Source: Curvularia clavata
Lineage: Eukaryota
Length of the DNA stretch: 64,000 bases
Assembly: GCA_023920165.1 (NCBI GenBank)
Contig: CP089274.1
Coordinates: 496,001-560,000 of the forward strand
Direction: 5' to 3'
In this document: positions 5,949-59,366 of the stretch, piece by piece
How the letters are laid out: every line of letters starts with the position of its first letter
Position numbering within the stretch: the first letter of the stretch is position 1
Translations under genes and position numbers: made by a program
Notes under the pieces: generated by a model
The model's database searches: none
The model's input: the letters and a program-made list of their open reading frames with translations, nothing else
What the model was told of the DNA's origin: nothing

Positions 5949-8441
5949 TCATACCAATATGATCGTCTCCCGCTTCCCATCAAAATGCTTCGTACTGCCT
6001 TCACATTTCCTTCCCACAGGTATCAACTTAAAGCAACCAACACGTTCCCAAGAAAGTTTTGCCGGATCGCCGGGCTGCACCACAAGTCCACTGCAACCAT
6101 CTCCGTCCCTTTTCCCACCGACTAGGGGAAGAATAGCAAGCCCTACACTATTCTCCAGATGCGTGTCTGGCCACCACTGGAACGCATAATCGTCTTTGCT
6201 GAACGCTTTGCCTTGTCCTCGAACAGACTGGAACTCGTAGATTCGATTTCCCTCCCTATCACGCTTGAATTTCAGCTCGAGGTCAAAGATGCATCCGTGA
6301 ATAATCGCTTTGTTCGTTGCTCCGAGCCCATCGAACGAAAGGCGTGCTTTGTTGTCTGCTTCAGCCATAGCCATCCGGACGTCAATCTTTTCAAAGTCAA
6401 AACGCTGACCAACGACTGCAGCATCAACCGAAAGCCACGACCACGTGGGTGCCTTGAACTCTGCTGGGTCAATCCGTTTTCCAGGCTTGCGTATCTTCCA
6501 CATGAGTTCCTCGGTAAGGTTACGTCCCCATAAGCCGAAGAAGAGCCTGTTGGGTGTCGAGCTTTTGTTAATGACCTTCTCGGCTTGTTTGGCCAAGGCA
6601 GCAATCGCGTTCCATTTGTCGGAGTTGAAAGTTAAATTGCTGGCAGTGTATTCTCGCACGATGCGCCACCAGAACGGGCTCCAGTCTTCATATTGGAGGC
6701 CAGCTTTCGCTTCCCGGCGAATCATCTCCAGAGAGGACTTTAGTCCCATGTCTATGTGCGCCCCACTGGACAATCGATGGATATCTCTGTGTAGTAGAGG
6801 TGAAAGCTCATCTGCAGTGCCCTCGATACATTCCCAATGCACCATATCTGCTCCAAAATTCAATGTACGTGGAGCTAACGCGCGCTCTTGTACAACCCAT
6901 CCTCTCGTATGAAGAGGAGGGCGTTTGTCGCCGTTAGAGCTTGGCCCTCGGCTCTTCTCTGGCACTGCCCATATTCGATCCCGACTCTCCGGAATCCCGT
7001 CGCGAAGGAGTGCAGGGACCAATGATAGTGGGTAACGCGACTTGAAGCATCCGCCGTTGCTGTTTTCTGCTGCGAGCGCAGCAATAGTCAAAGTAGCGTT
7101 ACCGTAAACTTCGCCCATCGCGGGGATCTCCCGCGCTTTGTCGACCGGTGAGTCTTGGATGATGCACAAGGAATCAATCCAGAGGTAGTAAAAACCCATT
7201 TTTGAAGTGATTTGTGTGGCGTCAAGGAAGTTTTGTGGCAGTGAATCAATGGGTATGTCATTCAGCAGGCTGTTGTAGTTCTTGGACACTAGACTGAAAG
7301 AATGACCACCCCATCGGTGACTGAGGGCGAAGTACGATATGTTGCGGTTGGGTAGGTCGGAGGTAGCACAGAGCTTAAGGGAAATTACATCGCCTCCAAC
7401 AGCTGTGATCTTGATGAGTCGTGTGGGCAGAAAGCCACTGCGTGTAGTGACCTTGTTGCAAGAGTCATGATTCTCGCGGCACTTTCGGAGCCACTCCTTG
7501 GCCATGGCATACAGCGGTTGTGAGTCAGTCCGTGTGTGCTGTAAAGATGCAGACAAGTCTTTAGGCTTGTGACCATAGCTGAGCTCGATTGTCCGCAGTG
7601 TTATAGGTCCTCCCTCCTTTGATATCATTTTCTGCAAGAGGATATTTCCAGGTCCATCATAACTTTGTTTCCCTGATACCGCAACGCCGTAGAAATCGCT
7701 TTCGGGATCGGACTCGGGTTCGTCAAGCACAGTTTCCCGACCGATTAGCATTGAACACAAATGACATCCATCTTGAGCAGATTTGCGAACGGATTCCAGA
7801 GTGTAAAGGTGGCGCGAGAAGAGATCCCTAACTTCTTGACCCGAAAAGCTATCATCCTGGCAGCAATCGCAAGCCCCGTCTTCAATGTGAATTCCGAAGC
7901 CAGTTGATGTACACCCCGGGGGTCGCATACGGATTGCTCGGGCTTTTTTCAGGATTACTTTGCAAAAGCCGCAATACCGATATGGCTGAACTGCTTGGGC
8001 GATCGCATTTTCGCAACCAAACGAGAACTCGGAACTTGGCCCGCTGTTACTTGGTTGACTTTGACCAAAGGTAAAGGCACTAGTCGGAGGCGTCTTGCTG
8101 CTTCCAAAGACGAACAGTTGACGTGAATTGTTTGGGGGCTTCGACCGTTGACCTGACGAGTCTACATGATTTTCCAATGGAGAGACACCTGGGCCAGTTT
8201 CTTCCACCTCATGGAACTCAACGTCGATGGCAGGTTTTTTTGGAGTTCGATTTGAATTTCTAGGAGGTCCTGAAGGTCCATAGCGATCTGCTCTGGCGGC
8301 TGGATCAGTGCGTACTAGCACTTCTTCGACTTGTTCCCAAGATTTTAACATTTCCAATACTTCCTCTTCATCCATGTCACGACCACCCATTCTCGGGCCG
8401 GCTTGCCATACCAGCCCTTTTGGGAGCCCGTACTTTTCCAT
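5949..8441 (-). CDS. HET-domain (heterokaryon incompatibility) protein, 830 aa, intronless
   Basis: GCHLC, LPTRLI, YFALSHRWG, YLWIDSLCIIQD, MGEVYGNA, RGWVVQER..APRTLNFG, WECIE, APTWSWLSV, WERVG. Confidence 0.92.
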   Translation of the reverse strand: MEKYGLPKGLVWQAGPRMGGRDMDEEEVLEMLKSWEQVEEVLVRTDPAARADRYGPSGPPRNSNRTPKKPAIDVEFHEVEETGPGVSPLENHVDSSGQRSKPPNNSRQLFVFGSSKTPPTSAFTFGQSQPSNSGPSSEFSFGCENAIAQAVQPYRYCGFCKVILKKARAIRMRPPGCTSTGFGIHIEDGACDCCQDDSFSGQEVRDLFSRHLYTLESVRKSAQDGCHLCSMLIGRETVLDEPESDPESDFYGVAVSGKQSYDGPGNILLQKMISKEGGPITLRTIELSYGHKPKDLSASLQHTRTDSQPLYAMAKEWLRKCRENHDSCNKVTTRSGFLPTRLIKITAVGGDVISLKLCATSDLPNRNISYFALSHRWGGHSFSLVSKNYNSLLNDIPIDSLPQNFLDATQITSKMGFYYLWIDSLCIIQDSPVDKAREIPAMGEVYGNATLTIAALAAENSNGGCFKSRYPLSLVPALLRDGIPESRDRIWAVPEKSRGPSSNGDKRPPLHTRGWVVQERALAPRTLNFGADMVHWECIEGTADELSPLLHRDIHRLSSGAHIDMGLKSSLEMIRREAKAGLQYEDWSPFWWRIVREYTASNLTFNSDKWNAIAALAKQAEKVINKSSTPNRLFFGLWGRNLTEELMWKIRKPGKRIDPAEFKAPTWSWLSVDAAVVGQRFDFEKIDVRMAMAEADNKARLSFDGLGATNKAIIHGCIFDLELKFKRDREGNRIYEFQSVRGQGKAFSKDDYAFQWWPDTHLENSVGLAILPLVGGKRDGDGCSGLVVQPGDPAKLSWERVGCFKLIPVGRKCEGSTKHFDGKRETIILV

Positions 8442-9819
8442 GATGTAAAAAAGATGTTGAAGAGAGAAAGGAAGTTGTAACTCATTGCAGCGACAACGAA
8501 CTTTCCTATATGCAGGAATGGAAGGCTGCTCAGCCTTGCTGCGTACCGCCTCCAGCGGCTACCTGCATTTCAGCTGTCGAAAACGATTAGCCACTCGACG
8601 ACGTGTATGCCTTACGCGGTACACACGGCATTATAATTCGGGCATTATTGCTAAGTGGGCATAGCACGCGCTGTGGCTTGTCTCGGCGTCGATGGGTGGT
8701 TTCGGGATAGCAGCCATTGTGACACGCCCAAGGCAACGATCGGCGATAATTCGGAGCCTTGCCAATCGAACGTCGTCTGCGATAACGAACACAAGCTACG
8801 GAGTGGAGATGAAGTGGATATCTTCATATTAAAGTGAGGGCGTGACATAACGAGATAGTGTCGTTCTTGCACAAGGTAGCCTTCACCACCCAGCCTGGCG
8901 CCACCTATTGGATGCCATCAGGCTGGAAGAGGTGCGAGTGGTCCACTACAACAGTTGCAAAAGCCTCGCTCACGGATGGCACCACCTAATGTCGTCAAAT
9001 ATCTGGATTAAGCTTCCAAAAAGTGAGCGAACAGAATGGGTCCGCTGGGAGAGCCGAATTGATAGGGCAAAACCTCTCCTTTTATCTACGACTTGTTCAT
9101 AGCATACCCCCAAGATCTTAATGTTGCATTTCTTGTCATAAAGTGGCCTCATTTTTAGCAGAATTTTGTCTTTTGCTTGCACGGTGTACACAAGCGTACC
9201 CTCATGCTTAGGTATTAAAGTCTGGCTGCAAACGTAGCATTGATTTCAAAATCTACTTTAGTGCGCTTAAAATCGATGTTTCGTTGCTTCATGATCAGGG
9301 TCATTTCCTTCTGCCTAACTATCTCCCCTCACATTATTCTCAGCATGGCTTCTTCATACCCAGGCCCTGCATCCCCTGTGATACTATGGGGCTTTAAACA
9401 TCTTTTATTGCATGGACACTCAAGCACGTCATAGGTATGCATTGCTGCTTAATCTAATCCTATGGAAGCACGCGATAATGTTGAAGCTTTCAAGCAAGAA
9501 TCTCGATGTCTAGTCTTCTGCTTTCCACTGTATGTAACGTCTTTGCAGTCTTAGCCAGGCAATTGAATTGGGAGGGCTGGATGAATGGTAGCGTGCCCTT
9601 CTCCGTCGTGGAACGCCCGCGAGGAGATGTTCGCGTGTGGGCTGAGAGATAGTCATTATTGAACAGAACTTGCCTCAAATGACAGCACTTCTCTCGTTTA
9701 TACACGTACTGTATTCCACCTACCCATCCGATAGGCGTGCGTCTAGAAGGACTGCAGAAAAGGTGTAATGGACTAATTGTAGCTTGTTTTTTTTTGGAAA
9801 CTATAAATCTTAAATATAA

Positions 9820-46909: not shown

Positions 46910-48173
46910 TCAGTCCATACCAACGTACTTGAACCACAGCGGGCGGCAGTCCTCACGATTCAGCCACTTCTCGCCATCCGTGAAACGACCCGTGACGCAG
47001 CCTGAGCATTTTGGATTATTCGGACAATTGAAAAAGGGAATGTGTTGGTATCCAATGTCGCGGAACCAATGAATCTTGTTCTTGTCCTCGAATAGGCCGA
47101 GCGCCACACTGTGGACCGGTGCATCGCCCCAGCGCTCGTAAAAGAAGCCACCAGCACGGTCGAGGTGGTTGAAGTAGTCGCGGTACTTTTTGCTGCGCCA
47201 GAAGCTCAGATCGCCAATCTCAAAGTTGGACCAGAAATGGCAGGTCGAGTAGCCGTGAGCTTTTTTGTGGTTCTCCGGTCGGCGTTTGCCATCTTCAAGC
47301 CATTCGCGCGCGTTATTCGGGTGGACATAGTCAGGGTGATCCTGAATGAATTTTCGGGTTTCTGGCCAGAGAGTGGCGACGCTGTCGGGACTGTCGTAGA
47401 TGTTGATGTTGAAGCCGTAGGTTTTGTTGTGGTCTTGCATCCACGCAAAAACATCGTAGTCCACGTCGCAGAAGAAGTGAACATTGGGCTCCACTCTCCA
47501 GTAATACTGCATGTCCTTCAGAGCAGGATGCTCACTGAACATGCCGCTGTTCCACCGACACATTTGATGGTACGATTTTTTGCCCATATATTGTACGTCC
47601 AGCGATTCGAGTAATGACACGGACTCCTGGTACAGATCCATGTTGATCCACGATGGTACGTCCCAGTGTTCGGCGGGCACCAGCTCGTATCGTACTTGGG
47701 CCTTCGTAGCTGCCCGCGTAGCCTTCTTGAACTCTTCCGTGAAAGGCTTATCGTTAAAGAAGGTCCATGGGTAGTTGAACTTGTGATTCCACGTGCGCTC
47801 TAGATCTCGCATGCTCTGAAGCATATCCTCAAGTTCTTCATTGCGTACCAGGCTGAGAATCGTAGCATTGATGCGCGCGCTCTTGGGGTTATCGGGGGCA
47901 TAGTTATCGCCTTCAACTCGTCGCAACGGCTCGGGAGGCTCGCCAGACGCTGCGGAAAGCATTTAGTACTTCATCATTGCAACCATACTGGAGACGATCT
48001 CTCTTACGGTCTAATTGAGGGTCATGGTCCCAGTCTCCCGCTTGATTCGTCGGAAGCTTGCTCGGAACCTGTATTGGCGTCTCGGAACCGGGCCTGAGAA
48101 TCTGCACAAACAGATATAAGAAGACGCAAATGGTGGCGCCAGCCAAGTAGCGCATGCTCTTGGGAAGCGCCAT
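46910..48173 (-). CDS. GT15 alpha-1,2-mannosyltransferase (KRE2/KTR family); intron 47950-48007
   Basis: Type II TM anchor; NATILSLVRNEEL, FNYPWTFFND, SYHQMCRWNSG, YYWRVEP, CHFWSNFEI, GGFFYERWGDAPVHS. Confidence 0.95.
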
Positions 48174-48425: not shown

Positions 48426-51400
48426 TTAATGAATTCTCACAGAAATCCCAGTCGGCGAGATGCATTTTCCAGGAAGATGACCAGCCCCCACACGCTCATA
48501 TACTGTTTCACCCGCGCGACCACCATGCCCTGCTATTGCAATAATCAAAACATAGTGCCTCTTCATCTCTGATGAAAGGGTACCTCTGGCCTTTCCTAGT
48601 ACTACGCAAAGCGTTTTCGGCATCGAAGATCTGTTTGGCGTATCGAATATCAGTTCGCCCTCGCCCAATACTGCAGCACCCAGATCGTATTGTCTTGCTG
48701 TAGCAATCAACGCCACGTTGACAGTGCTAAAATCAGTGTTGGATATGTTTTGAGGAGAGTTCGGTGACCATGGCGATTGCAAGTCTTCCCACTCAAAGCT
48801 TCCGAATTCGGGTTGTAGATAGTCTATGCCGCCAGTATAGGCCATCCAAGACCACGAGGGCACAGTCGACACAACGCTTTCTGTGGGAAAATGAATTCTT
48901 GTTAGACGCCCAGTATCAGCGCCACGCCGCCAGAGGAGGCTTCTTCGGAGCAAGCCGCGCGTCACTCCTTCATCGAAGACCCCAAAACCACCGTTGACAC
49001 GCATGGTACGGAGCAGGCGCTGTTGCAGACCGTCTATGGCTGCAGGCCTATCGTATGGTTTTGAGAGCCCAAGGCGAGAATATTTTCGATATAATTCTTG
49101 GTAGCGCAGTATCCTTTCTCCTTGGCTGGCATTGGACAGAATGTGTGGGAATTCTGGGTCACCTAAGAATGCCGCAAGTTTACTGTGGTCCAGGGTCAGT
49201 CAATGAAAGCTCAATATGTGTAGTATGTACTTACTTGGTCAGCAATGTTGAAGTTTCACAGTGTACACCCTCACCGCATTCAAAATATGTCTGATTTTCG
49301 GTGAAGAAGAGTGTTCTACGAGCCAGAGCGTGCTCCTGTAGCACCCATCCGCGAGCGTGTAGATCTCCGTCAAGTACTTGACTCTTGAAATCATCGATGT
49401 TCTGGCACACGTAGAACGGCTCCTGGTCTTTGTCCTCACGGCACAAGCCAACATGCTTTCTGCGGTAGCGTGGTTTCAAAAACCCAGAATAATGATCAGT
49501 GGCACAACTTGCTGCAATCACACAGTAAGCGCCGCTATATACCTCCTCCATTCGCTTGGCCTCGGTCATGAAATCACTCTCTGGCCCTTGTATTATGCAT
49601 AGGGAATCGATCCAAAGATATCGTCGCCCCAACGCACGCGTGACTGTTATGGCATCTCTGAACGTAGCTGGAAGAGAGCTCAAATCTATGCCGCTGATGT
49701 GTGCTTGGAGCGTTTCAAGCGTAGTAGAGAAATGCTTTGAGCCCCATTGGTGAGAAAGAGCCACCCACTCGCCTGTATCTTCAGCTCCAGTTGCCCAAAG
49801 ACGGATCACGTCGTCCTCTTTTACTCCTAGGTCGAGTAGTCTGGTTGGTAATCTTGGTTTCGAATACCTTTTTGTATGATGAAGTGGCGCGCATTTGTGA
49901 TTTTGATCGCAGTTGGTTAGCCAGTGCTTGAAAACCTCACCATGAACAGTGCTCCCAGCGTTTGGAAGGATAACAAAGCCAAGCTGTACGTCTGTAGTAG
50001 GGGCGAACTGTTGCTCAAGATCCCGTACTACAGAAAGAACAGGATGGCCGCTTCCTCCGATTCTTAGGAACGGGCCGTTCCGATCGAACGTGATGGTTGG
50101 AGATGTCGCGCCTCCGTGCCGGACCACAGCGTCCCACAACAGACTGCACAGGTCGCATGCATTGGCGAGCTCGCTCGTCTCTAATTCTTGAACATCGTAC
50201 GATACAGAGAACCCAGGGATCAGGATTTGGTCTTGAAATTCGACACAACGAGCGCAAAGTCGGGATGTAGCTTCATGATTAGTGGATCCAAGCATGTTCA
50301 TATTTTTGAGCGATGCAGCTAAGCTTAGTGCAAGACTGTTACCAGACTGATATCTCCAGTCATTCTCATCAAGCTCTGGAGAGGCATAATTGACCTTGGA
50401 TATATTACGTTAATTGTGTTAAGACCAGCTTGCTAGGTTGTGACGATGCTTACCCTTGGTTGATTTGGAGCAGCAAGACTGTGGCTATCTGGTTCTGAAG
50501 CCCTTGGATATGCGCTAGAGTTACGCTCAATAAGTCCGTGATCCGTGGTAGGAGGTACAGATGCGGAGTATGACAGAGAAGATCTTTTCGACATTGAAAG
50601 GTGTGATTCTTGCAAACACCAATAGCTCTCGTCTTCGTCCTCTGCATCGATCTCCTCAAGCCGTTGACAGAAACCGTCTGAAAGAAGTCGAAAGGGTCCT
50701 CCGGCCGCAGCTTGGAACTGTACAGGGGCTTCGGAATGCTCTGGTTCCGCTGGGCTGAAAATGAAAGAGGGGAGGTCTGCTGCTGGTTTCGTTACATCTG
50801 CTATGGCACCTCCTTCGCCAATCGGTCCCCTAGAAATGATATTGGTGTCTTCGTTCGGTATGATCAATGCAGAATCTGTGCGATTTCTCTGAGGTAGACT
50901 AAGCATCGTCTGTCCGAGTCGTGGCGGAAGTTTCACAACCAGCAAACCTGTTCTCACAATCTCTAGGATATTACCCACAGCTGTGGTGCCAACTCTGCAC
51001 CGAGGGTCATCTGCCATTCGTTCCATCCAAGATGTTACGACATGGTGTACCTTGGCTTCGTTTTTTCCATTTTTGTTAATGATCTCGTAAAAGCTGTCAT
51101 GCCCCAATTCGTTGTGAAATGTCATCACTTTGCTCTCGCCATACAGGAGCCAAATGAGAAGCTCTAGGGTGATGCAGCCCATAGCCCATATATCATATAA
51201 GCGTGAGCGTCGTTTGGTTATGGTGCCCAAGGTCGCGGATTCAACACCTGTCACTACCTCTGGAGCTTCGTAGCGTAGGGTACCATACTTTGCAGCAGTC
51301 TTACTAGGACGCATCTCCGTAGCTTTAGTATGTCCACGAGCCTCACCCCAGTCGCCGATCTTGAACGTGCCTATTGATCCCTCGCTACCGAAAATCAGAA

Positions 51401-52431
51401 TATTTTCTGGCTTTATATCGCCGTGTCGATATGAAGATCCAGTCGTGTTCAAGTTATGAGCAGCTTCTAGTGCTTTGGCAAGTCCCAGGATCTGTTTGAT
51501 GATGGCTTTGATGAGCGGTGCTGTCAGAATAGGAGTTGGCATCCGTTTCCAGAGATCACAGAGATTCCCGCCGTCTGCCCATTCAAACATCAGATAATGT
51601 TCCTCTCTACAATGCTCCATTCGACGCCTGAAAGCTGTGATAAACCGAACAATATGCTTCTGGTTCAGTTGATTCATTGTCCTGAGGGCCCTGGCCTCGT
51701 TTTCCCAGTGTGTTGCCACTTCTTGCGCGTCTTCTGTAGCCTGGATCTCTTTGACGGCTAGTGTCGTATTTTCCGAACTCACCTATACCACGTTAACATT
51801 GCCTCCGCCGCGATTTGATTCTAGCTCAACCACGTACTGGGAGTAGATGATTTCCGTGAACAAAATACTGTGAAACTACGCCAAAGGAACCTCTCCCTGA
51901 TTCTGAATTTTTGGACACGAAAGGCAAAATATGTGATGCCTCTAGATCGTGATTGGGAGCGTCAGTCGAAAAGATTGGAGCAACGAAGCGCCACTGGTTA
52001 TGGAAGAATTCTGATGCAAAGACTTTCGATCCTAACACCCCCTCATCCTTGATAGGGAGTTTACTGTCATCAATTTTCTTTTTCTTCAGCGACCTCATAA
52101 CTGTCATGATATCTTTTGACCAGGTCAATACTGCGATAGCGAAGGTCTTCTTAGCGCGTGATTTGATGAATTCCACAATCTCGTCCGCCTTTTTTGAGGG
52201 CTGATTTATCTCCAAACAACTTCTGATCACGTCTTCCGTCATCATGTTTTCAATGACGCCTTCAGGGACGAATCTATGGGGAGTTTTATCGAAGGCGCTC
52301 AACGTAGAGTTCGCTAGGATCAATGATCTGAGTTGTGATCGAGGATCAGTTTCTTCCTCTTCTTCGTCGTCTTCTTCTGAAGACGAATCATCCGTAGTTT
52401 CGTTTCTGCAAACTACAGAGTCGTCGGCCAT
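48426..52431 (-). CDS. Protein kinase-HET domain fusion, ~1279 aa (introns 51783-51837, 50395-50453, 49183-49234)
   Basis: Kinase: GRGSFGVV, LAVKEI, HGDIKPEN, KIGDWG, YEAPE, DIWAMG. HET: CDLC, LPTRLLD, WVALSHQWG, YLWIDSLCIIQG, MEEVYSGA, RGWVLQE, VPSWSWMAY. All three introns splice in frame. Confidence 0.88.
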
Positions 52432-53348
52432 GGCTGCGTATGGTTAATAAGTCAATGAGGTCGACCCAGTGAGGAAATCGACTTGAGGAAGAAGTAACGA
52501 TGAGTCCAGAAACAGTGTAGCCCGCTAGCTTTTGATGAGGCCGAATTGGAACACAGTTACTAAAAATGCTAATTTCATCTGATTTATACGAAATGCCGAG
52601 CGCGGCTAAGTGCCACTGAGCTGCTGTTAGGGTGATGAGATTCCACGGAATACAGGGAATGAATATAGGGCTAGATTCGCCAGAACCTTGCAGCGGACAA
52701 CAATGCATGGATTGTTCACTGTCGAGATCCAATGAATGAACGGGTTGATACGCCGCAACAACAGTCTAGGCGTGAATGAGAGTCAATTACCGCGGAGCTC
52801 GCCACTCAAGCACCTCTCAAAGCGGCGTGCCAAGTTGCATCCACGGCCAACAGGAAACTGAATCGGGCAAAGACTGATACTGGGGGGATGTGGGGGCTGG
52901 CATTCGGACGCAGGGGGAATCGCATGCCTGCTCGAGACTTGTCGCGTAACTTGGAAGTGGCCGAGAACGGATAATGACAGGTATGTGCAGTGTACATTAC
53001 TTCGAGCGACACTGGGGACTGCATGGCTTTTTGTTTCATATAGTCGAGAGACTGACAAAGAGCATGGCAGCTGTATACTGCTGGCGAAGGACTGCTGCGT
53101 GATGATGGCTTCTCTTACTATGGACTATCTAAGCACGGCCCTCCACCACATTGGGTACTCGCCCGTCCTGATAGGTGTATCCACTACTGCAATCTTCCCA
53201 TCGCTTCGAGCGATCGGCTGCAGCCGCAATCACAACTGGAGCATCCGAGCCGAACCGACTGTCAACTATAGTCGCCCCATCAATCACACGGGAAGCCTTG
53301 CCCTTGCCGATATGGGCGGCCGGCCGACCATCACTTCCGAGCTTTACT

Positions 53349-53733
53349 TTACCAGCACTCATCAAGATTCGTCTGCAAAAGAACAAGCAGTCATAATGTT
53401 CAAAACAGACATCATTACAGCTTTCCTACCTGTATAAGCTGCTCAGGGACTTGGATGATCTAGTTGTTATGCATCATCTGCGGTGGATCAGCGAAGCGCA
53501 ACCACGCCGCATTCCAGGTGAACGCCCACATGTATCTTGAACTTTGGGCCAGAATCAGAAGCAAACTTCAACTTCAGCTGCTCTGTTAAATTCTCTGGAT
53601 CGATATCATTGACACCAACAATGTGTATGTCAGGCTCCGGAGACGGTGATGCGGATATCTGTTCTGGATGTTTTTGCTGTTGTCTCGAAGTATTCGCGAA
53701 ACGCTCCCAAAGCGTTTTCGTTAGCCTTTCCAT
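53349..53733 (-). pseudogene. Small 3-exon gene (~91 codons) with an in-frame TAG at 53460-53462 (pseudogene, truncated allele or recoded)
   Basis: MERLTKTLWERF...IDPENLTEQLKLKF...FKIH | intron 53478-53529 | MMHNN*IIQVPEQLIQ | intron 53373-53429 | TNLDECW*. Both introns are canonical GT..AG and phase 0. Confidence 0.55.
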
Positions 53734-54378
53734 TGTACTGCAATTAAATTGCTCTACTCCTAAACTCAGTAATGGTCCTGAAGACTGATCATAGATTTGG
53801 GTCACTTCCCCGTCAGCCAAAGTCCATATTGAAGCGCCAATCATGGTCATGCCCCAGACACCCACAAGGTTAAAGCTGAAACCTCGCACTGACCCGGAAC
53901 AGTGATAGCCTAACTTTTTTCAGTCCTATAATCCCTACGCGACACGCGATACGAGGTGGCGTAGGTCCCTGTCTCTTACATCGAGGCTACAGCGAGTAGG
54001 TCTGCCATCTCAAATTGCTGCTGTTGATGTTCTACAGCTTCAAGGGAACGAATATTATGTCGCATGTTCTCAATGAATCCTGTGTATCAAGAGCATCTCC
54101 AGGCAATATCTTGTTCATTCTAGGTATTATAAGAGCATCAGGAGCTTTTTTCCACCAGCACATGAGTGTCAGCCTTGCGGTCTACCTCGTCGCTGTTACA
54201 AGGATGTCACAGCTGTGCGTTTCGGACCCCACACTTTAGTTCAGTATTAGAACTTTTGGAGGGCATCAAGTCTGTCATATTCAGCATAGCTACTGTTAAC
54301 TAATTCCTGGACTGCAATCTTGCCTGAGGCGTAGTTTGGTTGCTCCCCCGACTGAGATAATGTAATACGGCCCACACC

Positions 54379-56718
54379 ATGGACATCGGATCAACCATAT
54401 CGGCGAAGAACTTACCTGAAAGAAATACACCATCACCTAAAAGTCATCGTACCCAACTTCTGAAAGAGACTAGGCTAGTGAGGGTGCAATCAACGAGTGC
54501 TTTTTGCACCGCTGAACGAAACACTGCGCTCACCCCAGCCAACCATCAAGGTGCACATCCATTGTGGCAAAGTAAACGCAAATAATCTAACTTTCTGAAA
54601 CAGATCCGAAGCGAACATTACAGCCGAAAAGTGAACATATACTCAACTTTAGAGGCGACCGTCTTACTAGTAATTCACTTGGCAGCGTACATGTGCCAAA
54701 GAGACATTCAGTAAATTCCACGATCGGTACCACAATCGGGAATGAAACAATTGGGGGAAACGAAAGCCATGACGAAATTGAACATGAAGAGCACTATGAG
54801 TTTCAGGGACCAACATCTTCCAGAACTCAAGACAACACCGTCAGTCCGGTTAAATTTGTAGGGCGATGGGCGAAAACACGTCTTCCCAGAGACGACTCAA
54901 GTTCTCAGCTGCGAAGGAGACTTTTAGAAGTTACCGTCAAAAATCATCTTCAGCAAAGGTTCATACCAGACAAAAAGCTCAGGGAGATTGTCACAGCTGA
55001 GACAGTGTGTGCGGAGCTCAAAAAATCTAACTATTCGAACCTTCGGAGGATACATGCAAGGCCAGTCACCGTCGAAGACGGAGGAGAATATCAGAAAATA
55101 CTTGCCATATTGTATCTCATCAAACTGCCATCCAAAATTCGGAAGTTTGTCAAGTACGGTGTGTGCGACAAAGACCTTCCGCTCGTGGCATGCGAGAACT
55201 CAAAGGACGCATCTTCCCCTAAGCTGAGAAGTGGACACGACTGCACAGCTCATCCTATTAGATTCAAGAGAAAAGAGTACATTCAAGATTTTCTGGACAC
55301 ACAGTGGGAAGTTCTTGCCCCCATTTTCCCATGGACTGGTGGAGACCATATTTGGCACCGCAGACTTATGCCTGAGACAATCATACCATTCATCTCTCAT
55401 GATAGAACGGCACAAGGAGGATATAGCAAGGTCCTCAAGACTAAGATCTACCCAACTCATCATCAATTCGGTAATGTGAGTTTTATCGTCCCCATTTACT
55501 TAGGTCGTATGATACTGACATGTGTATTTCACCAGGGAAACATCTTCGCCGTCAAGGTGCTAAAAGAATGTGACCAAGAAGCATTCAAGCAAGAAGCAGT
55601 CATCCTTGGCAGATTCTCAAACCCTTTGCACAGTCACAAACATTTAATCACGCTCTTAGCCACTTTTGAGCATAAAGAAATGTTTCACTTTATATTCCCT
55701 TGGGCCGAAGCTGACCTGCTGACATTCTGGAAAAAAAGGCGCGATCCTCCCAATAGCGAAAAGATGGAAACATGGATCATTGAACAATGTTATGGTCTTG
55801 CAGAAGCTCTCAATACCATAAATAGATATGAGACAATGTCAGGGACAACCCTGATCGATCATGTCTCCAAGCAGGTAGAGGGAAATGGAGAACAACGCAC
55901 CATTCAAATCGAAATCTCGAGCACCGATCACCCACTCCGCAATCTATTTGGGCGCCACGGGGACCTAAAACCGGAGAACATCCTGTGGTTCCCGTGCCCC
56001 GAGTCTCCGGGAGGTCATGGTATCCTTAAAATTACCGATTTCGGTGCGGCTCGTTTCAACACCGTCAATATATGGGACACGCGTAAAACTGGCCGCATTC
56101 CCAATTCTGCCGTCTATAGTTCCCCTGAGATAGATCTCGATGGCAGGTTGACTACTGCATGCGACGTTTGGGCTCTCGGTTGCGTCTACCTTCAGTTCAT
56201 CAGTTGGTTTTGCGGTGGCAACTCACGGCTCGAAGATTTTGGCCGGAGGCGTTTGGCCGATGATTACAAACTGGCCAACGTGCCAAATGGCACCTTCTTC
56301 AGTCTTGTTCAAGAAGGAGAGTTGATGAAGGCCATTGTTAAGCCTGCTGTTGTAGATGTAAGTTTCCGCCAACTCTTTTCTACCATCCTGATATGAACGT
56401 ATCTAGCAGCATCATAACAAAGAGCGCTAAAAGCACGTTGTCCTCTTCGCATTAATAACAGAGAAACAGGAAATTGAAAAGCTATGGAATCATCCAAGGT
56501 GTACCAAAGATTTTAAAACTCTTCTCAATATAATCCAGGAGGATATGTTGGTGGTTTATCAACAAGAAGCATCTGGTTGCCAAGAGTCGATCACGCCAGG
56601 AATTGAGAGGGTTTCCGAGTCAATACCTCCAAATGGAAGCGATACTGTTGTTAACAGAAGAAAGAGTTGTGGAAATATCTGGCGTCGAATAGGTGACATT
56701 AAAGCCACCGGCGATTGA
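54379..56718 (+). CDS. Fungal Ser/Thr protein kinase-like protein (introns ~54551-54603, 55475-55534, 56358-56469)
   Basis: QGGYSKV, FAVKVL, HGDLKPENILWF, LKITDFG, YSSPE, DVWALGC; last exon EIEKLWNHPRC...LLNIIQEDMLVV...RKSC. The first exon is uncertain. Confidence 0.85.
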
Positions 56719-57321: not shown

Positions 57322-59366
57322 TTACTCGAGCAAAAACTCCCAAAGCCCTTCACCATTGACAAAATCACCCCAGATAACATTAACCAGCCAATAGTCGCGC
57401 CTAAGCCCTCCAAGCAAAGTACTCGTTGCACTTCTCGGTGGGTAAATTCTCTGCCACTCCTGCCAAATGCTAAAGGCCTCGTCTAGCCAACTCCTAAAAC
57501 TGACTGCTTCGATGATAGTAGGCGTGACGATTTCTTTGCCAGCAAAAGTGCCCCATGTAACGGGATTCACACCATCCTCTTGACTGGCTTCAAAGTCTCC
57601 TGCGGCGTTACCGGCGAAATAGGTGACTTGGTCGTGGGCATCGAGCCTTGGTTTGAGGACAGCGAATTCGGAAGCAGGGATGAAGAACTCAACAAAGGGT
57701 TTCTGGAAAACGTAGCCGTTTTTGGGGCCCCAGCCGAAGACGGGGTCGGTGGATTTGATGCCGTTGACAGCAGGTTGCGAGGCTACTGTCCACCAGCCCT
57801 TGGCATTCAGAGCGAGCAGCTGTTTGCTGATGGTCAGGGTTTCTGGTGAAAGGCCTTGTTCGCTCCATGGTATGGCTTCAAGGTCTCCTCCAATGTGGCG
57901 GCGGAACAGGGTTGAGATGTCGTTCTTCTCAACTGGGTGACCCCAGAGCTTAAGCGCTTGCGGTGTAGAAACGTGAAGCGTTGGTCCATAGCCATCGATC
58001 TCACCAAACGCCGGAGAACGCGCATCACCCCATCGGCCGTTGGGGAAATCGTCCCAAGTTGCTTCTCGACCTAGAGATCCCTCACCTTCCGAGATTGCCA
58101 GAGTGTTTGCGCGAGTGTTGATTGGCCCTCGTGGAACTCCAGCCTCCTCTTCTGTTGCTTCATATGAGGGATTGCTCGACCGAGCAGCGGAAACATGTGA
58201 CACGATCACTCTGTTGCGTGGGCCAGAGTTGACAGCGGATGATCGACGTCGATGCGGTATGACGCCGTTGGGTGGCGGCTCCAAGTTGATGGCCGGTGTT
58301 GTTTCAACAATGACCTCATCGTCATCCTCGAACAATGTGCTAGGAATGAGGTGTGTATCTTCCAATATATGTGAGACGGCCTTTTCCAGGTTGAGCGTGT
58401 AGAAGTGAAATCCTCTCCTGCACGTATCTGGCCGGGCTTTGATGTGTTCCACCATCTCGTCCATGATCTGAACACCCACTTGCTTGACCAGTTCGTCATC
58501 ACTTTTGACTGCATCCAAACGCGCCAGAATTTCTGCAGGCAGCTTTGCGTGCGAAAGCTTGGTTGTACGAAGCAGGATCTTGTATGATTGGATTGGCATC
58601 AATCCTGGTATTATTGGTATTGTCTTGAACACGCCGCTCTCATGCTCTCTCAGCATCTTCTCAAACTTGTCGTAAGCTGAAACATCATAGAAAAGTTGAG
58701 TCATGATGAAGTCGGCGCCCGCTTTGGTCTTTTCAACAAGGTACGGTAGGTCGAACAGTGGATCTTGATGTTCGGGGTGACTCTGGTCGGAATGGCCCTC
58801 GGGATACGCGGCGACACCAATGCAAAAGTAGTCACCATACTGCTTCCGGATATACCTAACAAGGTCAATGGCCCATGTGAAGTCCTTGTTCGAGTCCTGT
58901 TCAGGTGGTGTATCCTCATCCCTGTACTCTTCACTACGAGGCGCGTCACCCCGCAGAGCAAGGATATTCCTTATTCCCAGCACCTGTGCCTGCTCCAGCG
59001 CCTCATCGATAAGCTGACGGTTCATGTTTGTGCATGTCAAGTGGAGACATGTTGTAAGGCCCAATTGGCGCTGGCAGATCTCAGCAAGTTCCAGCGACTT
59101 TGTGGCTGTTGACCCTCCAGCGCCCCAGGTGACGGTGACAAACAGAGGACGGAGTGCCTGTGACATGCGCTCTAGTCGAGTTTGGAGGTTCGCAAATCCC
59201 TGAGCCGTCGTTAACATCTGCTCAAGCCATGCCGATGCCCTTGCTTTGGCAATGGTCGCGTGCAGCGGGGCAATCTCACCATCGCCGTCTTCGGCGGAAA
59301 GAACTCGAGCGAGAAGTAATTGGCGCCATCGGGCAGCGCATTGATCTTATCCGTAATCTTCTCCAT
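57322..59366 (-). CDS. MET12: Methylenetetrahydrofolate reductase (Met12-like paralogue); intron 59200-59279
   Basis: FSLEFFPPKT, VTWGAGG, CLHLTCTN, ALRGD, AAYPEGH, IMTQLFYD, HFYTLN, ATWDDFPNGRWGDARSPAFGEIDGYG. Confidence 0.93.

What the first reader, a model, noticed from the sequence alone, without database searches (positions are those of the whole stretch)
48426..56718. Head-to-head kinase-HET fusion / paralogous kinase pair: candidate kinase-gated cell-death or allorecognition module
Seen: two divergently transcribed genes, ~1.9 kb apart, sit between the housekeeping genes KTR and MET12. One encodes kinase+HET, the other a kinase alone, and both keep the VAIK-type Lys, HGDxKPEN and DxG motifs. 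A tiny gene lies between them. Known: HET domains are TIR-related cell-death effectors (TOL, HET-6, HET-E), usually controlled by NLR/STAND sensors or a linked partner gene, and head-to-head sensor/executor pairs are a recurring immune architecture. No NACHT/NB-ARC gene was seen in this window. Inference: the free kinase guards, inhibits or activates the kinase-HET executor by phosphorylation or heterodimerisation.
Basis: partly seen in the sequence, partly recalled or inferred. Interest (0 to 1): 0.8.

Follow-up and report, generated by a model that had tools for sequence, protein, structure and literature searches.

The report
Conserved kinase / kinase-HET death-gene pair
Two back-to-back fungal genes, a kinase fused to a cell-death (HET) domain and a related free kinase, have stayed neighbours across distant fungi and exist as very old, sharply different versions in near-identical genomes, which makes them a strong candidate for an undescribed self/non-self recognition locus.

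Summary
Between KTR and MET12 sit a 1279-aa gene (KH: N-domain, kinase, 4-Cys domain, HET, PSWSW domain; 48426-52431, minus) and, head-to-head 1.95 kb away, a 704-aa gene (S: the same N-domain plus kinase; 54379-56718, plus). An 81-aa ORF lies between them. Both kinases keep all catalytic residues. They are distant paralogs (27% identity).

The linkage is conserved. Of 20 distinct metagenome KH loci with enough flank, 17 have a kinase-only paralog next door, 13 of them head-to-head. Two annotated genomes show consecutive locus tags. KH and S kinases form two clades with mirrored branching (Mantel r 0.85).

New here: in two independent pairs of contigs with near-identical flanks (dS 0.07-0.08), the module has dS 0.4-1.5 and dN/dS 0.09-0.29, with no RIP signature. 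That is the footprint of ancient balanced haplotypes, as at het loci. The N-domain models as a SAM-like bundle and the HET domain weakly resembles TIR. A co-fold gave weak support only.

I found no description in print. The best reading is a two-gene, kinase-controlled HET cell-death locus of allorecognition type. The mechanism is inferred, not shown.

The parts
48426..52431 (-). KH gene. Encodes 1279 aa: N-domain, Ser/Thr kinase, linker, 4-Cys domain, HET, and a C-terminal PSWSW domain. Exons 52431-51838, 51782-50454, 50394-49235, 49182-48426.
   Evidence: ORFs and splice sites read; the spliced ORF is intact. Exon junctions match full-length homologs P0001 and P0006. Intron 2 is seen as a spliced loose end in a relative's transcript contig.
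51976..52344 (-). KH N-terminal domain (aa ~30-152). Its second half (aa ~90-152) models as a SAM-like five-helix bundle.
   Evidence: AlphaFold2 model of exon 1 with 50 sequences, pLDDT 89.6. VIA-align wide search: 8ucy_A SAM Z 7.0, rmsd 1.7 over 59 of 65; SARM1 SAM 6o0s_A Z 5.6; 10 of the top 11 rows are SAM domains. No Pfam hit. Foldseek found nothing.
50913..51900 (-). KH kinase domain, interrupted by intron 51783-51837. The G-loop GRGSFG lies in exon 1 and the rest in exon 2. Non-RD catalytic loop RHGDIKPEN, with DWG in place of DFG.
   Evidence: Pfam PF00069, 1.9e-25. Motif positions. AxK, E, RHGDxKPEN and DWG are invariant or nearly so in 27-50 homologs.
50143..50259 (-). Conserved CxxC...CxxC (4-Cys) site in the domain between the linker and HET. 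Putative zinc site.
   Evidence: C47, C50, C80 and C83 of the exon-3 piece are conserved in at least 90% of 50 sequences. The region is confidently folded in the model (pLDDT 90.2 overall). Metal binding is inferred, not tested.
49333..49767 (-). HET domain (PF06985).
   Evidence: Pfam 3.3e-30, 105.8 bits against a cutoff of 22.5. The blocks WVALSHQWG, LWIDSLCIIQ and RGWVLQE are present. The fold weakly resembles nucleoside 2-deoxyribosyltransferases and TIR domains, Z 4.0-4.5.
48429..49182 (-). C-terminal PSWSW-motif domain (exon 4).
   Evidence: The PSWSW motif is at KH aa 1136. A domain with this motif is described for TOL/PIN-C-type HET proteins in PMC10890737 (passage read). No Pfam model matches.
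53491..53733 (-). Tiny gene: an 81-aa ORF on the same strand as KH, about 1.05 kb upstream of the KH start. One transcript contig of a relative is spliced at 53529-53478, giving a 73-aa product.
   Evidence: Translation. tblastn hits in the S/KH spacer, in the same orientation, in L005 and L001 (4e-7), L014 (3e-6) and L003 (4e-4). Four homologs of 81-130 aa share the same C-terminus. Spliced contig X6, depth 4.5.
52432..54378 (.). Divergent spacer between the two start codons. It is presumably a shared or bidirectional promoter region and contains the tiny gene.
   Evidence: Coordinates from the gene models. Comparable spacers of 0.9-3.7 kb between BLAST-hit edges in 13 related loci. Promoter function is inferred.
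54379..56718 (+). S gene. Encodes 704 aa: disordered N-terminus, the same N-domain, and a Ser/Thr kinase with an insert before the catalytic loop. Exons 54379-54550, 54604-55475, 55536-56357, 56470-56718.
   Evidence: All three introns are seen as GT..AG joints in contigs of 4 runs from 2 studies of a close relative. ORF is intact. Pfam PF00069, 1.3e-15. Catalytic residues are invariant in 47 homologs.
46910..47962 (-). Flank: KTR-type alpha-1,2-mannosyltransferase (main exon).
   Evidence: Pfam Glyco_transf_15, 3.1e-114. The same gene lies beside the KH 3' end in L001-L003 at 92-94% aa identity, but inverted.
57322..59346 (-). Flank: MET12-type methylenetetrahydrofolate reductase (main ORF).
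   Evidence: Pfam MTHFR 2.7e-92 and MTHFR_C 9.2e-57.

Best explanation
The locus is a two-gene, kinase-controlled cell-death module of the heterokaryon-incompatibility (allorecognition) type.

KH is the executor. Its HET domain (TIR-related) together with a TOL/PIN-C-like PSWSW domain would kill the cell. Upstream of these it carries an N-terminal SAM-like domain and an active kinase that act as the control part.

S carries the same N-domain and an active kinase but no effector. It is KH's dedicated partner.

The two proteins are proposed to associate through their N-domain and kinase parts and to trans-phosphorylate. Within one haplotype the co-adapted S and KH keep HET silent. When hyphae of different haplotypes fuse, a non-cognate S/KH combination (or loss of cognate control) releases KH self-association and HET-dependent death.

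What is shown: the architecture, catalytic competence at sequence level, conserved adjacency, co-diversification, and haplotype-like hyper-divergence. What is inferred: binding, phosphorylation, the direction of control, and the death output.
For: 1. Architecture. Pkinase plus HET sit in one intact 1279-aa ORF, and S is an intact 704-aa kinase. All catalytic kinase residues are invariant or nearly so in 49 KH and 47 S homologs.

2. Family. Of the 120 listed longer relatives of the KH kinase exon, 99 carry PF00069 plus PF06985. They are about 1290 aa long and come from Dothideo-, Sordario- and Leotiomycetes.

3. Adjacency.
- Locus tags are consecutive for Nn.00g099850/Nn.00g099840 and for O1611_g3458/g3457.
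- There are 34 metagenome loci with KH plus HET, forming 29 clusters at 95% aa identity. Twenty of these clusters have at least 3.9 kb of upstream sequence.
- Of those 20: 10 have an S-type kinase head-to-head, 1 has S in tandem upstream, 3 have a third kinase-only clade head-to-head, 3 have S just downstream, and 3 have none.

4. Tree. S-type (55 rows) and KH-side (90 rows) kinases split with SH-aLRT 100. All S genes adjacent to KH except L047's fall in one 38-row subclade (support 94). Pairwise distances of 24 KH/S pairs correlate, Mantel r 0.845, matched by 0 of 2000 permutations.

5. Balanced-haplotype footprint.
- L002 vs L003: KTR dS 0.081 (100% aa identity). S dS 0.72. KH N-domain 1.50, kinase 0.93, Zn 0.91, HET 0.77, PSWSW 0.44. 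The left flank gene has dS 0.35. dN/dS is 0.09-0.25.
- L013 vs L012: the flank HET-gene ORF has dS 0.073 over 589 codons. S dS 1.38. KH 1.18, 1.05, 0.66 and 0.42 along the gene. dN/dS is 0.13-0.29.
- There is no RIP signature: GC is 0.49-0.52 in both members of each pair, TpA/ApT is 0.56-0.64, and transitions are symmetric.

6. This window. Against transcript contigs of a close relative, the KH HET plus C-terminal part differs by 8.5-9.7%. KTR differs by 1.4%, MET12 by 1.3%, S exons by 0.6-3.6% and the KH kinase by 1.9%. A Logan protein, P0254, is only 90% identical over the C-terminal exon, while Bipolaris, a different genus, is 83% identical.

7. Domain folds. The N-domain models as a SAM-like bundle. 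SAM domains are oligomerisation modules, are present in SARM1, and are reported on fungal NLR N-termini (PMC9815663, passage read).

8. Co-fold. The Bipolaris oryzae pair (P0004 residues 46-505 with P0126 residues 21-535) scored ipSAE 0.59, against a best control of 0.01. The verdict was 'weak support'. That mark was reached by 51 of 78 solved complexes and 2 of 108 mismatched pairs. At 0.60 or below, however, it was reached by only 5 of the 78 solved complexes and by all 4 mismatches that passed. Runs agreed in at least 61% of contacts, and partner pLDDT was at least 72.

9. Precedent. Linked two-gene HET loci with highly divergent haplotypes and non-allelic interaction are established: het-B Bh/Bp and het-c/pin-c (PMC10890737, abstract and passages).
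Against: - No experiment and no population sample was available. The hyper-divergence rests on two pairs of metagenome contigs plus one relative of the window, so allelism is inferred from shared flanks.
- In L002/L003 the two flank genes disagree (dS 0.08 and 0.35), so the genomic background level is not well fixed.
- In the window's own comparison the peak lies in the HET and C-terminal part, and S coding sequence is conserved (0.6-2.4%). In the two contig pairs the peak lies at S and the KH N-domain instead.
- The relative's 3' contigs have higher depth (24-37) than its 5' part (0-3), so they could come from a paralog.
- Its exon 3/4 joint carries 10 unmatched letters, so an intact frame there is not shown.
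- Three of 20 KH lineages have no partner kinase within 4.9-9.7 kb upstream and 6.8-7.8 kb downstream.
- The co-fold is only 'weak support', did not use the alignments, and two kinases may dock from memory of solved kinase dimers.
- The SAM-like match (Z 7.0) and the TIR-like match (Z 4.0-4.5) are below the level the tool calls clear.
- Most HET-domain genes are not het genes, according to the reviews PMC10197012 and PMC12881547 (passages read).
Confidence: 0.55

Rival explanations
1. Guard/guardee xenorecognition module. S is a signalling kinase, or a decoy of one, that is targeted by antagonists such as mycoviruses, bacteria or mycoparasites. KH monitors S through the shared N-domain and kinase surfaces and fires HET-dependent death when S is perturbed. 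The old haplotypes would then reflect an arms race with antagonists rather than conspecific recognition.
For: The same structural and linkage evidence applies as for the main reading. Reviews argue that most HET-domain genes act outside allorecognition (PMC10197012 and PMC12881547, passages read). Conservation of the pair across fungal classes fits a general immune function better than a species-level het role. dN/dS of 0.09-0.29 shows that both proteins are constrained.
Against: No antagonist or trigger is known. The steep dS peak bounded by near-identical flanks is the pattern documented for het loci in the papers seen (PMC10890737 abstract; PMC11138114, search listing and abstract start only). 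It does not exclude pathogen-driven balancing selection.
Confidence: 0.2
2. Ordinary paralogous signalling kinases with no death function. They would be kept adjacent by a shared bidirectional promoter after an old duplication. The high divergence would come from exchange between paralogous pairs in the genome, or from mis-paired contigs.
For: The family is large: 213 S-type hits and 162 KH-type hits. Alternaria-named records hold several pair types, for example P0005 and P0008 at 63% identity and P0127 and P0128 at 51%, so paralog replacement is conceivable. No death assay exists.
Against: L002 and L003 share both flank genes (OCD and KTR), and L012 and L013 share the downstream HET-gene flank. 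dS falls smoothly toward the flanks: 1.50, 0.93, 0.91, 0.77, 0.44, then 0.08. That is what recombination around a selected site predicts, not a block replacement. HET is a documented death-inducing domain (reviews). The effector half is as conserved as the kinases.
Confidence: 0.15
3. Selfish toxin-antidote or spore-killer-like element. HET would be the toxin, and the fused kinase, the free kinase or both would be the antidote. The element would persist by drive rather than by benefit to the host.
For: A killer domain and a kinase-type domain sit in one protein, with a linked second kinase. The analogy to Podospora Spok proteins, which combine killing and kinase-dependent resistance functions, is recalled from memory and was not read here. 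The divergent haplotypes could also arise under drive.
Against: The module sits at a stable syntenic position next to KTR in Curvularia and in Alternaria-like contigs, and next to OCD in Alternaria-like contigs. It co-diversifies with the species tree, unlike a mobile driver. No transposon or Starship features were looked for or seen in the ORFs scanned.
Confidence: 0.07

Closest known systems
het-B of Podospora anserina (adjacent Bh and Bp genes); also het-c/pin-c and un-24/het-6 of Neurospora crassa
   Same: Two tightly linked genes, one of which encodes a non-NLR HET-domain protein. The haplotypes are highly divergent, and balancing selection is documented (PMC10890737, abstract and passages). 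KH's C-terminal domain carries the PSWSW motif that the paper attributes to TOL and PIN-C.
   Different: The partner here is a paralogous protein kinase, not a PII-like protein, HET-C or ribonucleotide reductase. The HET protein itself carries an N-terminal SAM-like domain and an active kinase. The pair is conserved as a pair across fungal classes. No incompatibility phenotype is known.
SARM1 (ARM, tandem SAM, TIR NADase)
   Same: A SAM-type oligomerisation module lies upstream of a TIR-type death effector in one polypeptide. The SARM1 SAM (6o0s_A, Z 5.6) and the SARM1 TIR (9hq0_A, Z 4.1) both appear among the fold matches to the corresponding KH parts.
   Different: No sequence-level SAM or TIR membership was found: there are no Pfam hits. 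KH has a kinase and a 4-Cys domain between the two parts, has no ARM domain, and has a separate partner gene. NADase activity of HET is unproven (reviews).
Animal kinase-plus-adaptor death and immune complexes: MyD88-IRAK Myddosome and RIPK1/RIPK3-MLKL necrosome
   Same: Paralogous kinases assemble through a shared homotypic interaction domain and control a TIR-type or membrane-attacking executor. The necrosome logic is described in the reviews read. The Myddosome comparison is recalled from memory.
   Different: The interaction domain here is SAM-like, not a death domain or RHIM. The executor is fused to one of the kinases. There is no evidence of homology beyond the kinase fold. The nearest solved kinases are Rad53, CDKL5 and HIPK2 at E 1e-8 to 1e-10.
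Fungal two-gene immune clusters (gasdermin/protease, NLR/amyloid effector) and head-to-head plant NLR pairs
   Same: A regulator gene and an executor gene are kept adjacent. The fungal two-gene clusters are discussed in PMC10197012 (passage read). The plant NLR pairs are recalled from memory.
   Different: There is no NLR, protease, gasdermin or amyloid motif here. No NACHT or NB-ARC domain occurs in the window.

Membership tests
HET domain proteins (PF06985) | Pfam HET profile match above the gathering score | tested here: met
   105.7-105.8 bits against a cutoff of 22.5, covering the full profile 1-146.
HET domain proteins (PF06985) | Conserved sequence blocks of the domain (W.ALSH.WG, LWID.LCI.Q, RGW.LQE). 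The block definitions are recalled from memory. | tested here: met
   WVALSHQWG, LWIDSLCIIQ and RGWVLQE occur at KH aa 851, 901 and 989. These columns are invariant or at least 90% conserved in 50 sequences.
HET domain proteins (PF06985) | Induces cell death when expressed | not testable with these tools
   Needs an expression assay. The property is reported for other HET domains in reviews.
TOL/PIN-C-type HET proteins | C-terminal domain with the PSWSW motif | tested here: met
   VPSWSWMAY at aa 1136. P, S, W, S, W are invariant or at least 90% conserved. The motif is described in PMC10890737.
Eukaryotic protein kinases (PF00069), catalytically competent | Pfam match plus the VAIK Lys, alpha-C Glu, HxD...KxxN catalytic loop, DFG Asp and APE | tested here: met
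   KH 90.2 bits and S 58 bits against a cutoff of 31.7. All motifs are present in both proteins and conserved in their families. Both have HGD (non-RD), and KH has DWG. Enzyme activity was not tested.
SAM (sterile alpha motif) domains | Five-helix SAM fold | tested here: inconclusive
   VIA-align wide search: 8ucy_A Z 7.0, rmsd 1.7, 59 of 65 aligned; 10 of the top 11 rows are SAM domains. The tool warns that Z under 8 can be a common arrangement. Foldseek found no match with E at or below 0.001.
SAM (sterile alpha motif) domains | Sequence-profile membership (Pfam SAM families) | tested here: not met
   No SAM family hit even at E up to 10 for the KH or S N-terminal pieces.
TIR domains / TIR NADases | TIR (flavodoxin-like) fold | tested here: inconclusive
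   Z 4.0-4.5 on model residues ~207-383. Matches include nucleoside 2-deoxyribosyltransferases and TIR domains: SpbK 9phb_G Z 4.3, Hydra TRR-2 4w8h_A Z 4.2, SARM1 9hq0_A Z 4.1, TIRAP 9fqm_B Z 4.0. Foldseek found nothing.
TIR domains / TIR NADases | Catalytic glutamate and NAD+ hydrolysis | not tested
   A nearly invariant Glu sits in RGWVLQE. Its equivalence to the TIR catalytic Glu was not examined, and activity needs an assay.
Heterokaryon incompatibility (het/vic) loci | Highly divergent haplotypes at one locus, with a narrow peak of synonymous divergence between normal flanks | tested here: met
   L002/L003: module dS 0.44-1.50 against KTR 0.081. L013/L012: module dS 0.42-1.38 against a flank ORF at 0.073. 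No RIP signature. This rests on two contig pairs only. The window against a relative gives 8.5-9.7% against 0.6-2.4%.
Heterokaryon incompatibility (het/vic) loci | Haplotypes segregate within a species, or are shared across species | not testable with these tools
Heterokaryon incompatibility (het/vic) loci | Co-presence of unlike haplotypes triggers cell death or barrage | not testable with these tools
   Needs pairing or co-expression experiments.
NLR / STAND-controlled HET proteins (HET-E/D/R type) | NACHT or NB-ARC NTPase domain with repeats in the same protein or nearby | tested here: not met
   No such Pfam family occurs in KH, S or any of the 41 ORFs of 170 aa or more in the window.

The most novel reading that the evidence does not exclude
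The S/KH pair is an ancient, class-spanning fungal allorecognition or immune switch. Two paralogous kinases would assemble through SAM-like domains to gate a TIR-related HET executor, making it a fungal counterpart of SARM1 or Myddosome logic. It would be maintained as trans-specific haplotypes, and it would be the first molecularly defined het-type locus family for Dothideomycetes (Curvularia, Bipolaris, Alternaria). Recognition specificity would lie in the co-adapted S and KH N-domain/kinase surfaces, where dS peaks.
Probability: 0.35. Interest if true: 0.85.

Novelty: new variant of a known kind. Interest (0 to 1): 0.74.

Why it matters
How HET domains are switched on outside NLRs is an open question, and the reviews I read call these genes mysterious. 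This pair offers a defined, widely conserved regulator-executor couple that can be tested directly with kinase-dead, N-domain and haplotype-swap constructs.

If the balanced-haplotype signal holds in populations, it would point to a recognition locus in important plant-associated fungi (Curvularia, Bipolaris, Alternaria). In my five literature searches I found no cloned incompatibility locus for these fungi. It would also link protein phosphorylation to TIR-like death signalling in fungi.

Tried and rejected
- Whole genome of the window: none is held, so I could not count paralogs or test presence/absence in the same genome.
- RNA evidence: the look-up of sequencing runs listed no RNA holder. 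The 8 runs listed are guessed RNA with a small share of words. I laid 4 of the 8. Their spliced joints show they are transcripts of a relative, not of the window's own strain.
- My first S model (intron 54478-54623) was wrong. Joints in 4 runs place the intron at 54551-54603.
- My first KH exon-4 boundary (49181) was off by one and gave 13 stops. It is corrected to 49182.
- Foldseek against the PDB gave no match at E 0.001 or better for either model.
- ESM Atlas feature search on the N-domain gave no usable hit.
- Pfam at E up to 10 gave nothing for the N-domains, the tiny protein or the C-terminal exon. The one exception was a sub-threshold Usp38-like_N hit (E 0.098), which I dismiss.
- RIP as the cause of the divergence is rejected.
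- Window vs L001-L005 nucleotide comparison was too distant (66-78% identity) to inform on haplotypes.
- L015/L024, L039/L043 and L013/L011 are too diverged (pS saturated, or flanks also diverged) to test the flank-versus-module contrast.
- Whether the Curvularia clavata record has a KH ortholog stays open. Its S is 96% identical (P0121). No KH hit above 62% identity appeared among proteins of 777-2215 aa, and the best C-terminal fragment is the unnamed Logan protein P0254 at 90%.
- My recollection that Cryphonectria vic4 involves a kinase could not be confirmed in the passages read, so I do not use it.
- The search of earlier findings by place and by sequence returned nothing.
- Literature: five searches, plus passages in PMC10197012, PMC12881547, PMC9815663, PMC4540973, PMC10890737, PMC7849911, 10.1101/721753 and 10.1101/2025.10.01.678058, gave no description of a kinase-HET fusion family or of a kinase/kinase-HET gene pair. 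Subscription journals and supplements were not seen.

Full report
**What is in the window**

The region lies in a fungal genome of Curvularia type. The plus-strand kinase is 96% identical to a Curvularia clavata record, P0121.

Two intact genes sit head-to-head between a KTR-type mannosyltransferase (Glyco_transf_15, 3.1e-114) and MET12-type MTHFR (2.7e-92).

KH, on the minus strand:
- Exons 52431-51838, 51782-50454, 50394-49235 and 49182-48426.
- Three GT..AG introns of 55, 59 and 52 nt.
- 1279 codons with no internal stop.
- The exon junctions reproduce the sequence of full-length homologs from Bipolaris and Neocucurbitaria.

S, on the plus strand:
- Exons 54379-54550, 54604-55475, 55536-56357 and 56470-56718.
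- 704 codons.
- All three introns appear as GT..AG joints in transcript contigs from 4 runs, 2 studies, of a close relative. This corrected my first guess for intron 1.

The two start codons are 1,947 nt apart.

**Domains**

In KH, Pfam finds Pkinase (1.9e-25) and HET (3.4e-30). In S it finds Pkinase (1.3e-15).

Both kinases keep the ATP-anchoring Lys, the alpha-C Glu, an HGDxKPEN catalytic loop (non-RD), the DFG/DWG Asp and the APE motif. These residues are invariant or nearly so in 49 KH and 47 S relatives. Both therefore look catalytically competent.

They are only remotely like any solved kinase. The best matches are Rad53 and CDKL5 at 1e-10 to 4e-9, and HIPK2 at 2e-8.

The two proteins are distant paralogs. 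They share 27% identity over the kinase core (1e-17) and a collinear 150-aa N-terminal domain (3e-5). The intron between the G-loop and the VAIK strand sits at the same place in both.

The N-domain has no Pfam family.
- An AlphaFold2 model with 50 sequences has pLDDT 89.6.
- Foldseek finds nothing.
- An all-against-representatives structural search gives SAM domains in 10 of its top 11 rows for residues ~90-152. Examples are Tric1 SAM (Z 7.0, rmsd 1.7, 59 of 65 residues), SARM1 tandem SAM (Z 5.6), and Ste50, tankyrase and ASK3 SAM.
- These Z values are middling by the tool's own warning, so 'SAM-like' is a lead, not a classification.

Between the kinase and HET lie a poorly conserved linker and a folded domain with a conserved CxxC...CxxC site.

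The HET model (pLDDT 90.2) weakly resembles nucleoside 2-deoxyribosyltransferases and TIR domains at Z 4.0-4.5. This agrees with the remote HET-TIR relation stated in the literature but does not prove it.

The C-terminal exon carries the PSWSW motif. The het-B paper attributes this motif to TOL/PIN-C-type HET proteins.

**The tiny gene**

An 81-aa ORF lies at 53733-53491, on the same strand as KH and about 1.05 kb upstream of it. Its conserved C-terminal half reads ...GIDPEKL..KL.LKF.S..F.IHV...LECGVV.

- It recurs in the S/KH spacer, in the same orientation, in four related loci: L005, L001, L014 and L003, with E 4e-7 to 4e-4.
- An exhaustive profile-free search of 1.84 billion representatives found 6 hits, 4 of them convincing, of 81-130 aa.
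- One of these, P0242, sits on a 3,853-nt contig.
- One low-depth (4.5) contig of the relative is spliced right after ...FKIH and would end the protein at 73 aa.

The tiny gene is real but restricted to the closest relatives. Its role is unknown.

**Is the pair more than chance?**

The KH architecture is a large family.
- 162 longer relatives of the kinase exon were found.
- Of the 120 listed, 99 carry PF00069 plus PF06985 at about 1290 aa. They come from Dothideomycetes, Sordariomycetes and Leotiomycetes.
- S-type kinases number 213 hits. Only 1 of the 120 listed carries HET.

Two annotated genomes give consecutive locus tags for the pair: Neocucurbitaria Nn.00g099850/Nn.00g099840, and Lasiodiplodia mahajangana O1611_g3458/g3457, the latter on a 16.7-kb contig. 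One of these, Didymella keratinophila, has tags 65 apart and so is not adjacent.

A scan of metagenome contigs with a KH alignment returned 80 loci. Scripted tblastn gave the following.
- 34 loci hold a KH kinase followed by HET. They fall into 29 clusters at 95% identity.
- 20 clusters have at least 3.9 kb of upstream sequence.
- Of these 20: 10 have an S-type kinase head-to-head, 1 has it in tandem upstream, 3 have a different kinase-only clade head-to-head, 3 have an S-type gene within 0.5-2 kb downstream, and 3 have none.
- The remaining clusters lack enough upstream sequence to be judged. None shows a downstream partner.
- Three further loci with KH truncated by the contig end (L004, L005, L014) also have S head-to-head.

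**Co-diversification**

I built a tree of 145 kinase cores (quick IQ-TREE, LG+C20).
- It splits S-type (55 rows) from the KH side (90 rows) with SH-aLRT 100.
- Every KH-adjacent S except L047's falls in one 38-row subclade (support 94).
- Of the 17 metagenome-locus rows in that subclade, 15 lie next to a KH-type gene.
- Of the 12 S-type locus rows outside it, only 1 does. Several of those contigs are too short to judge.
- The branching of partners mirrors each other: the window with Bipolaris; L002 with L003; L001 with L005 (L014's S joins them, but its KH core was too short for the tree); L011, L012 and L013; L015 with L024; L008 with the Sordariales records.
- For 24 pairs, the distance matrices correlate at r 0.845, equalled by 0 of 2000 permutations.

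So the pair is old and has been inherited as a unit. A third kinase-only clade inside the KH side pairs head-to-head with other KH genes (L039, L043, L056), which suggests the arrangement arose more than once.

**Haplotype-like hyper-divergence (the main new result)**

L002 and L003 come from one metagenome. Both are ordered OCD - S - KH - KTR.
- They are 97-99% identical in KTR but only 70-83% identical across the module.
- Nei-Gojobori estimates: KTR dS 0.081 (335 codons, proteins identical); OCD 0.35; S 0.72; KH N-domain 1.50; kinase 0.93; 4-Cys domain 0.91; HET 0.77; PSWSW 0.44.
- dN/dS is 0.09-0.25.

L013 and L012 show the same pattern.
- The downstream flank, another HET gene, has dS 0.073 over 589 codons. 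The next ORF has 0.146.
- S has 1.38.
- KH has 1.18, 1.05, 0.66 and 0.42 from the 5' end to the 3' end.

Base composition and dinucleotide indices exclude RIP: GC is 0.49-0.52 in both members, TpA/ApT is 0.56-0.64, and transitions are symmetric.

A 5- to 19-fold excess of synonymous divergence, with both genes still under purifying selection and a decline toward the flanks, is what long-term balancing selection on a recombining locus produces. It is the pattern described for het loci (het-B abstract).

In the window's own lineage the signal is partial. Against the relative's contigs:
- The KH HET plus C-terminal part differs by 8.5-9.7%, that is 70/819, 21/234, 133/1376 and 142/1499.
- KTR differs by 1.4%, MET12 by 1.3%, S exons by 0.6-3.6% and a KH kinase fragment by 1.9%.
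- Seven of the 10 listed coding differences fall on third codon positions.

An unnamed protein, P0254, is 90% identical over the C-terminal exon (226/251). The Bipolaris genus is 83% identical there but only 61% in the S kinase exon.

Caveats: the relative's 3' contigs are deeper than its 5' part and might derive from a paralog, and its exon 3/4 joint has 10 unmatched letters.

**Binding**

I co-folded the Bipolaris oryzae pair: KH residues 46-505 of P0004 with S residues 21-535 of P0126.
- It scored ipSAE 0.59 in three runs (0.59, 0.59, 0.60), against a best control of 0.01. The verdict was 'weak support'.
- The mark was reached by 51 of 78 solved complexes and 2 of 108 mismatched pairs.
- At 0.60 or below, however, it was reached by only 5 of the 78 solved complexes and by all 4 mismatches that passed.
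- The runs agree in at least 61% of contacts, and partner pLDDT is at least 72.
- My alignments were not used.

I treat this as a slight increase in the odds of direct association. Two kinases may also dock from memory of solved kinase dimers.

**Interpretation**

The best-supported reading is a two-gene HET death module of allorecognition type. KH is the executor, made of HET and a PSWSW domain. It is held under control by its own N-domain and kinase together with the partner kinase S. The peak of divergence in two lineages lies on S and the KH N-domain, which suggests that co-adapted S/KH surfaces carry specificity.

Rival readings are a guard/guardee immune pair, ordinary signalling paralogs, and a toxin-antidote element. 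The data do not exclude them.

No step of the mechanism has been shown experimentally. That includes binding, phosphorylation, the direction of control and death itself.

**Novelty**

Five full-text searches and the passages read in eight papers turned up no description of the kinase-HET family, of its pairing with a paralogous kinase, or of its haplotype structure. Supplements and subscription journals were not seen.

I did not check it.

The kind of system, a linked two-gene HET locus with divergent haplotypes, is known. This architecture, this partner and the breadth of conservation are not. I therefore classify it as a new variant of a known kind.

Noticed in passing
window 5952-8558 (-): A second, stand-alone HET-domain gene. 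It is an 869-aa ORF with HET at aa 409-558 (1.8e-27) and a 400-aa N-terminal part with no Pfam family. It is 34% identical to the KH HET region.
   Followed up: partly
window 54044-54378 (+): The S transcript leader holds six upstream ATGs, the longest uORF being 60 aa from 54057. A relative's contig runs unspliced from at least 54044. This stretch, extended to 54548 and so including S exon 1, is 10.7% diverged from the relative.
   Followed up: no
L001 13622-14662; L002 10489-11538; L003 10839-11843; window 46910-47962: KTR stays next to the KH 3' end in Alternaria-like contigs, but in the opposite orientation to the window. This is a local inversion of the flank gene.
   Followed up: partly
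P0121 (Curvularia clavata record) vs window 54379-56718: The public model of the S ortholog (529 aa) starts in another frame and skips part of the last exon. Transcript joints of a relative and the Bipolaris orthologs support the 704-aa model given here.
   Followed up: yes
P0130, P0132 (Alternaria alternata records); L002 358-1482 (-): Some public models fuse S with the neighbouring ornithine-cyclodeaminase-like gene (PF02423/PF01488). The same gene lies left of S in L001-L003 and L014. This looks like an annotation fusion.
   Followed up: partly
L039 6390-8056, L043 5558-7103, L056 6484-8238 (all minus): A third kinase-only clade, nested on the KH side of the tree, sits head-to-head with more distant KH genes. 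This suggests the kinase / kinase-HET pairing arose more than once.
   Followed up: partly
L011 12726-13655, L012 9506-10660, L013 12924-14690 (minus): Another HET-domain gene lies directly downstream of KH in this lineage. In L013/L012 it is nearly identical (dS 0.073) while the module beside it is highly diverged.
   Followed up: partly
P0005/P0008 and P0127/P0128 (records named Alternaria alternata): Records under one species name hold very different pair types: KH at 63% identity and S at 51%. The rarer KH and S types each have 4 member sequences. These are either hyper-divergent alleles or paralogous loci, and I could not tell which.
   Followed up: partly
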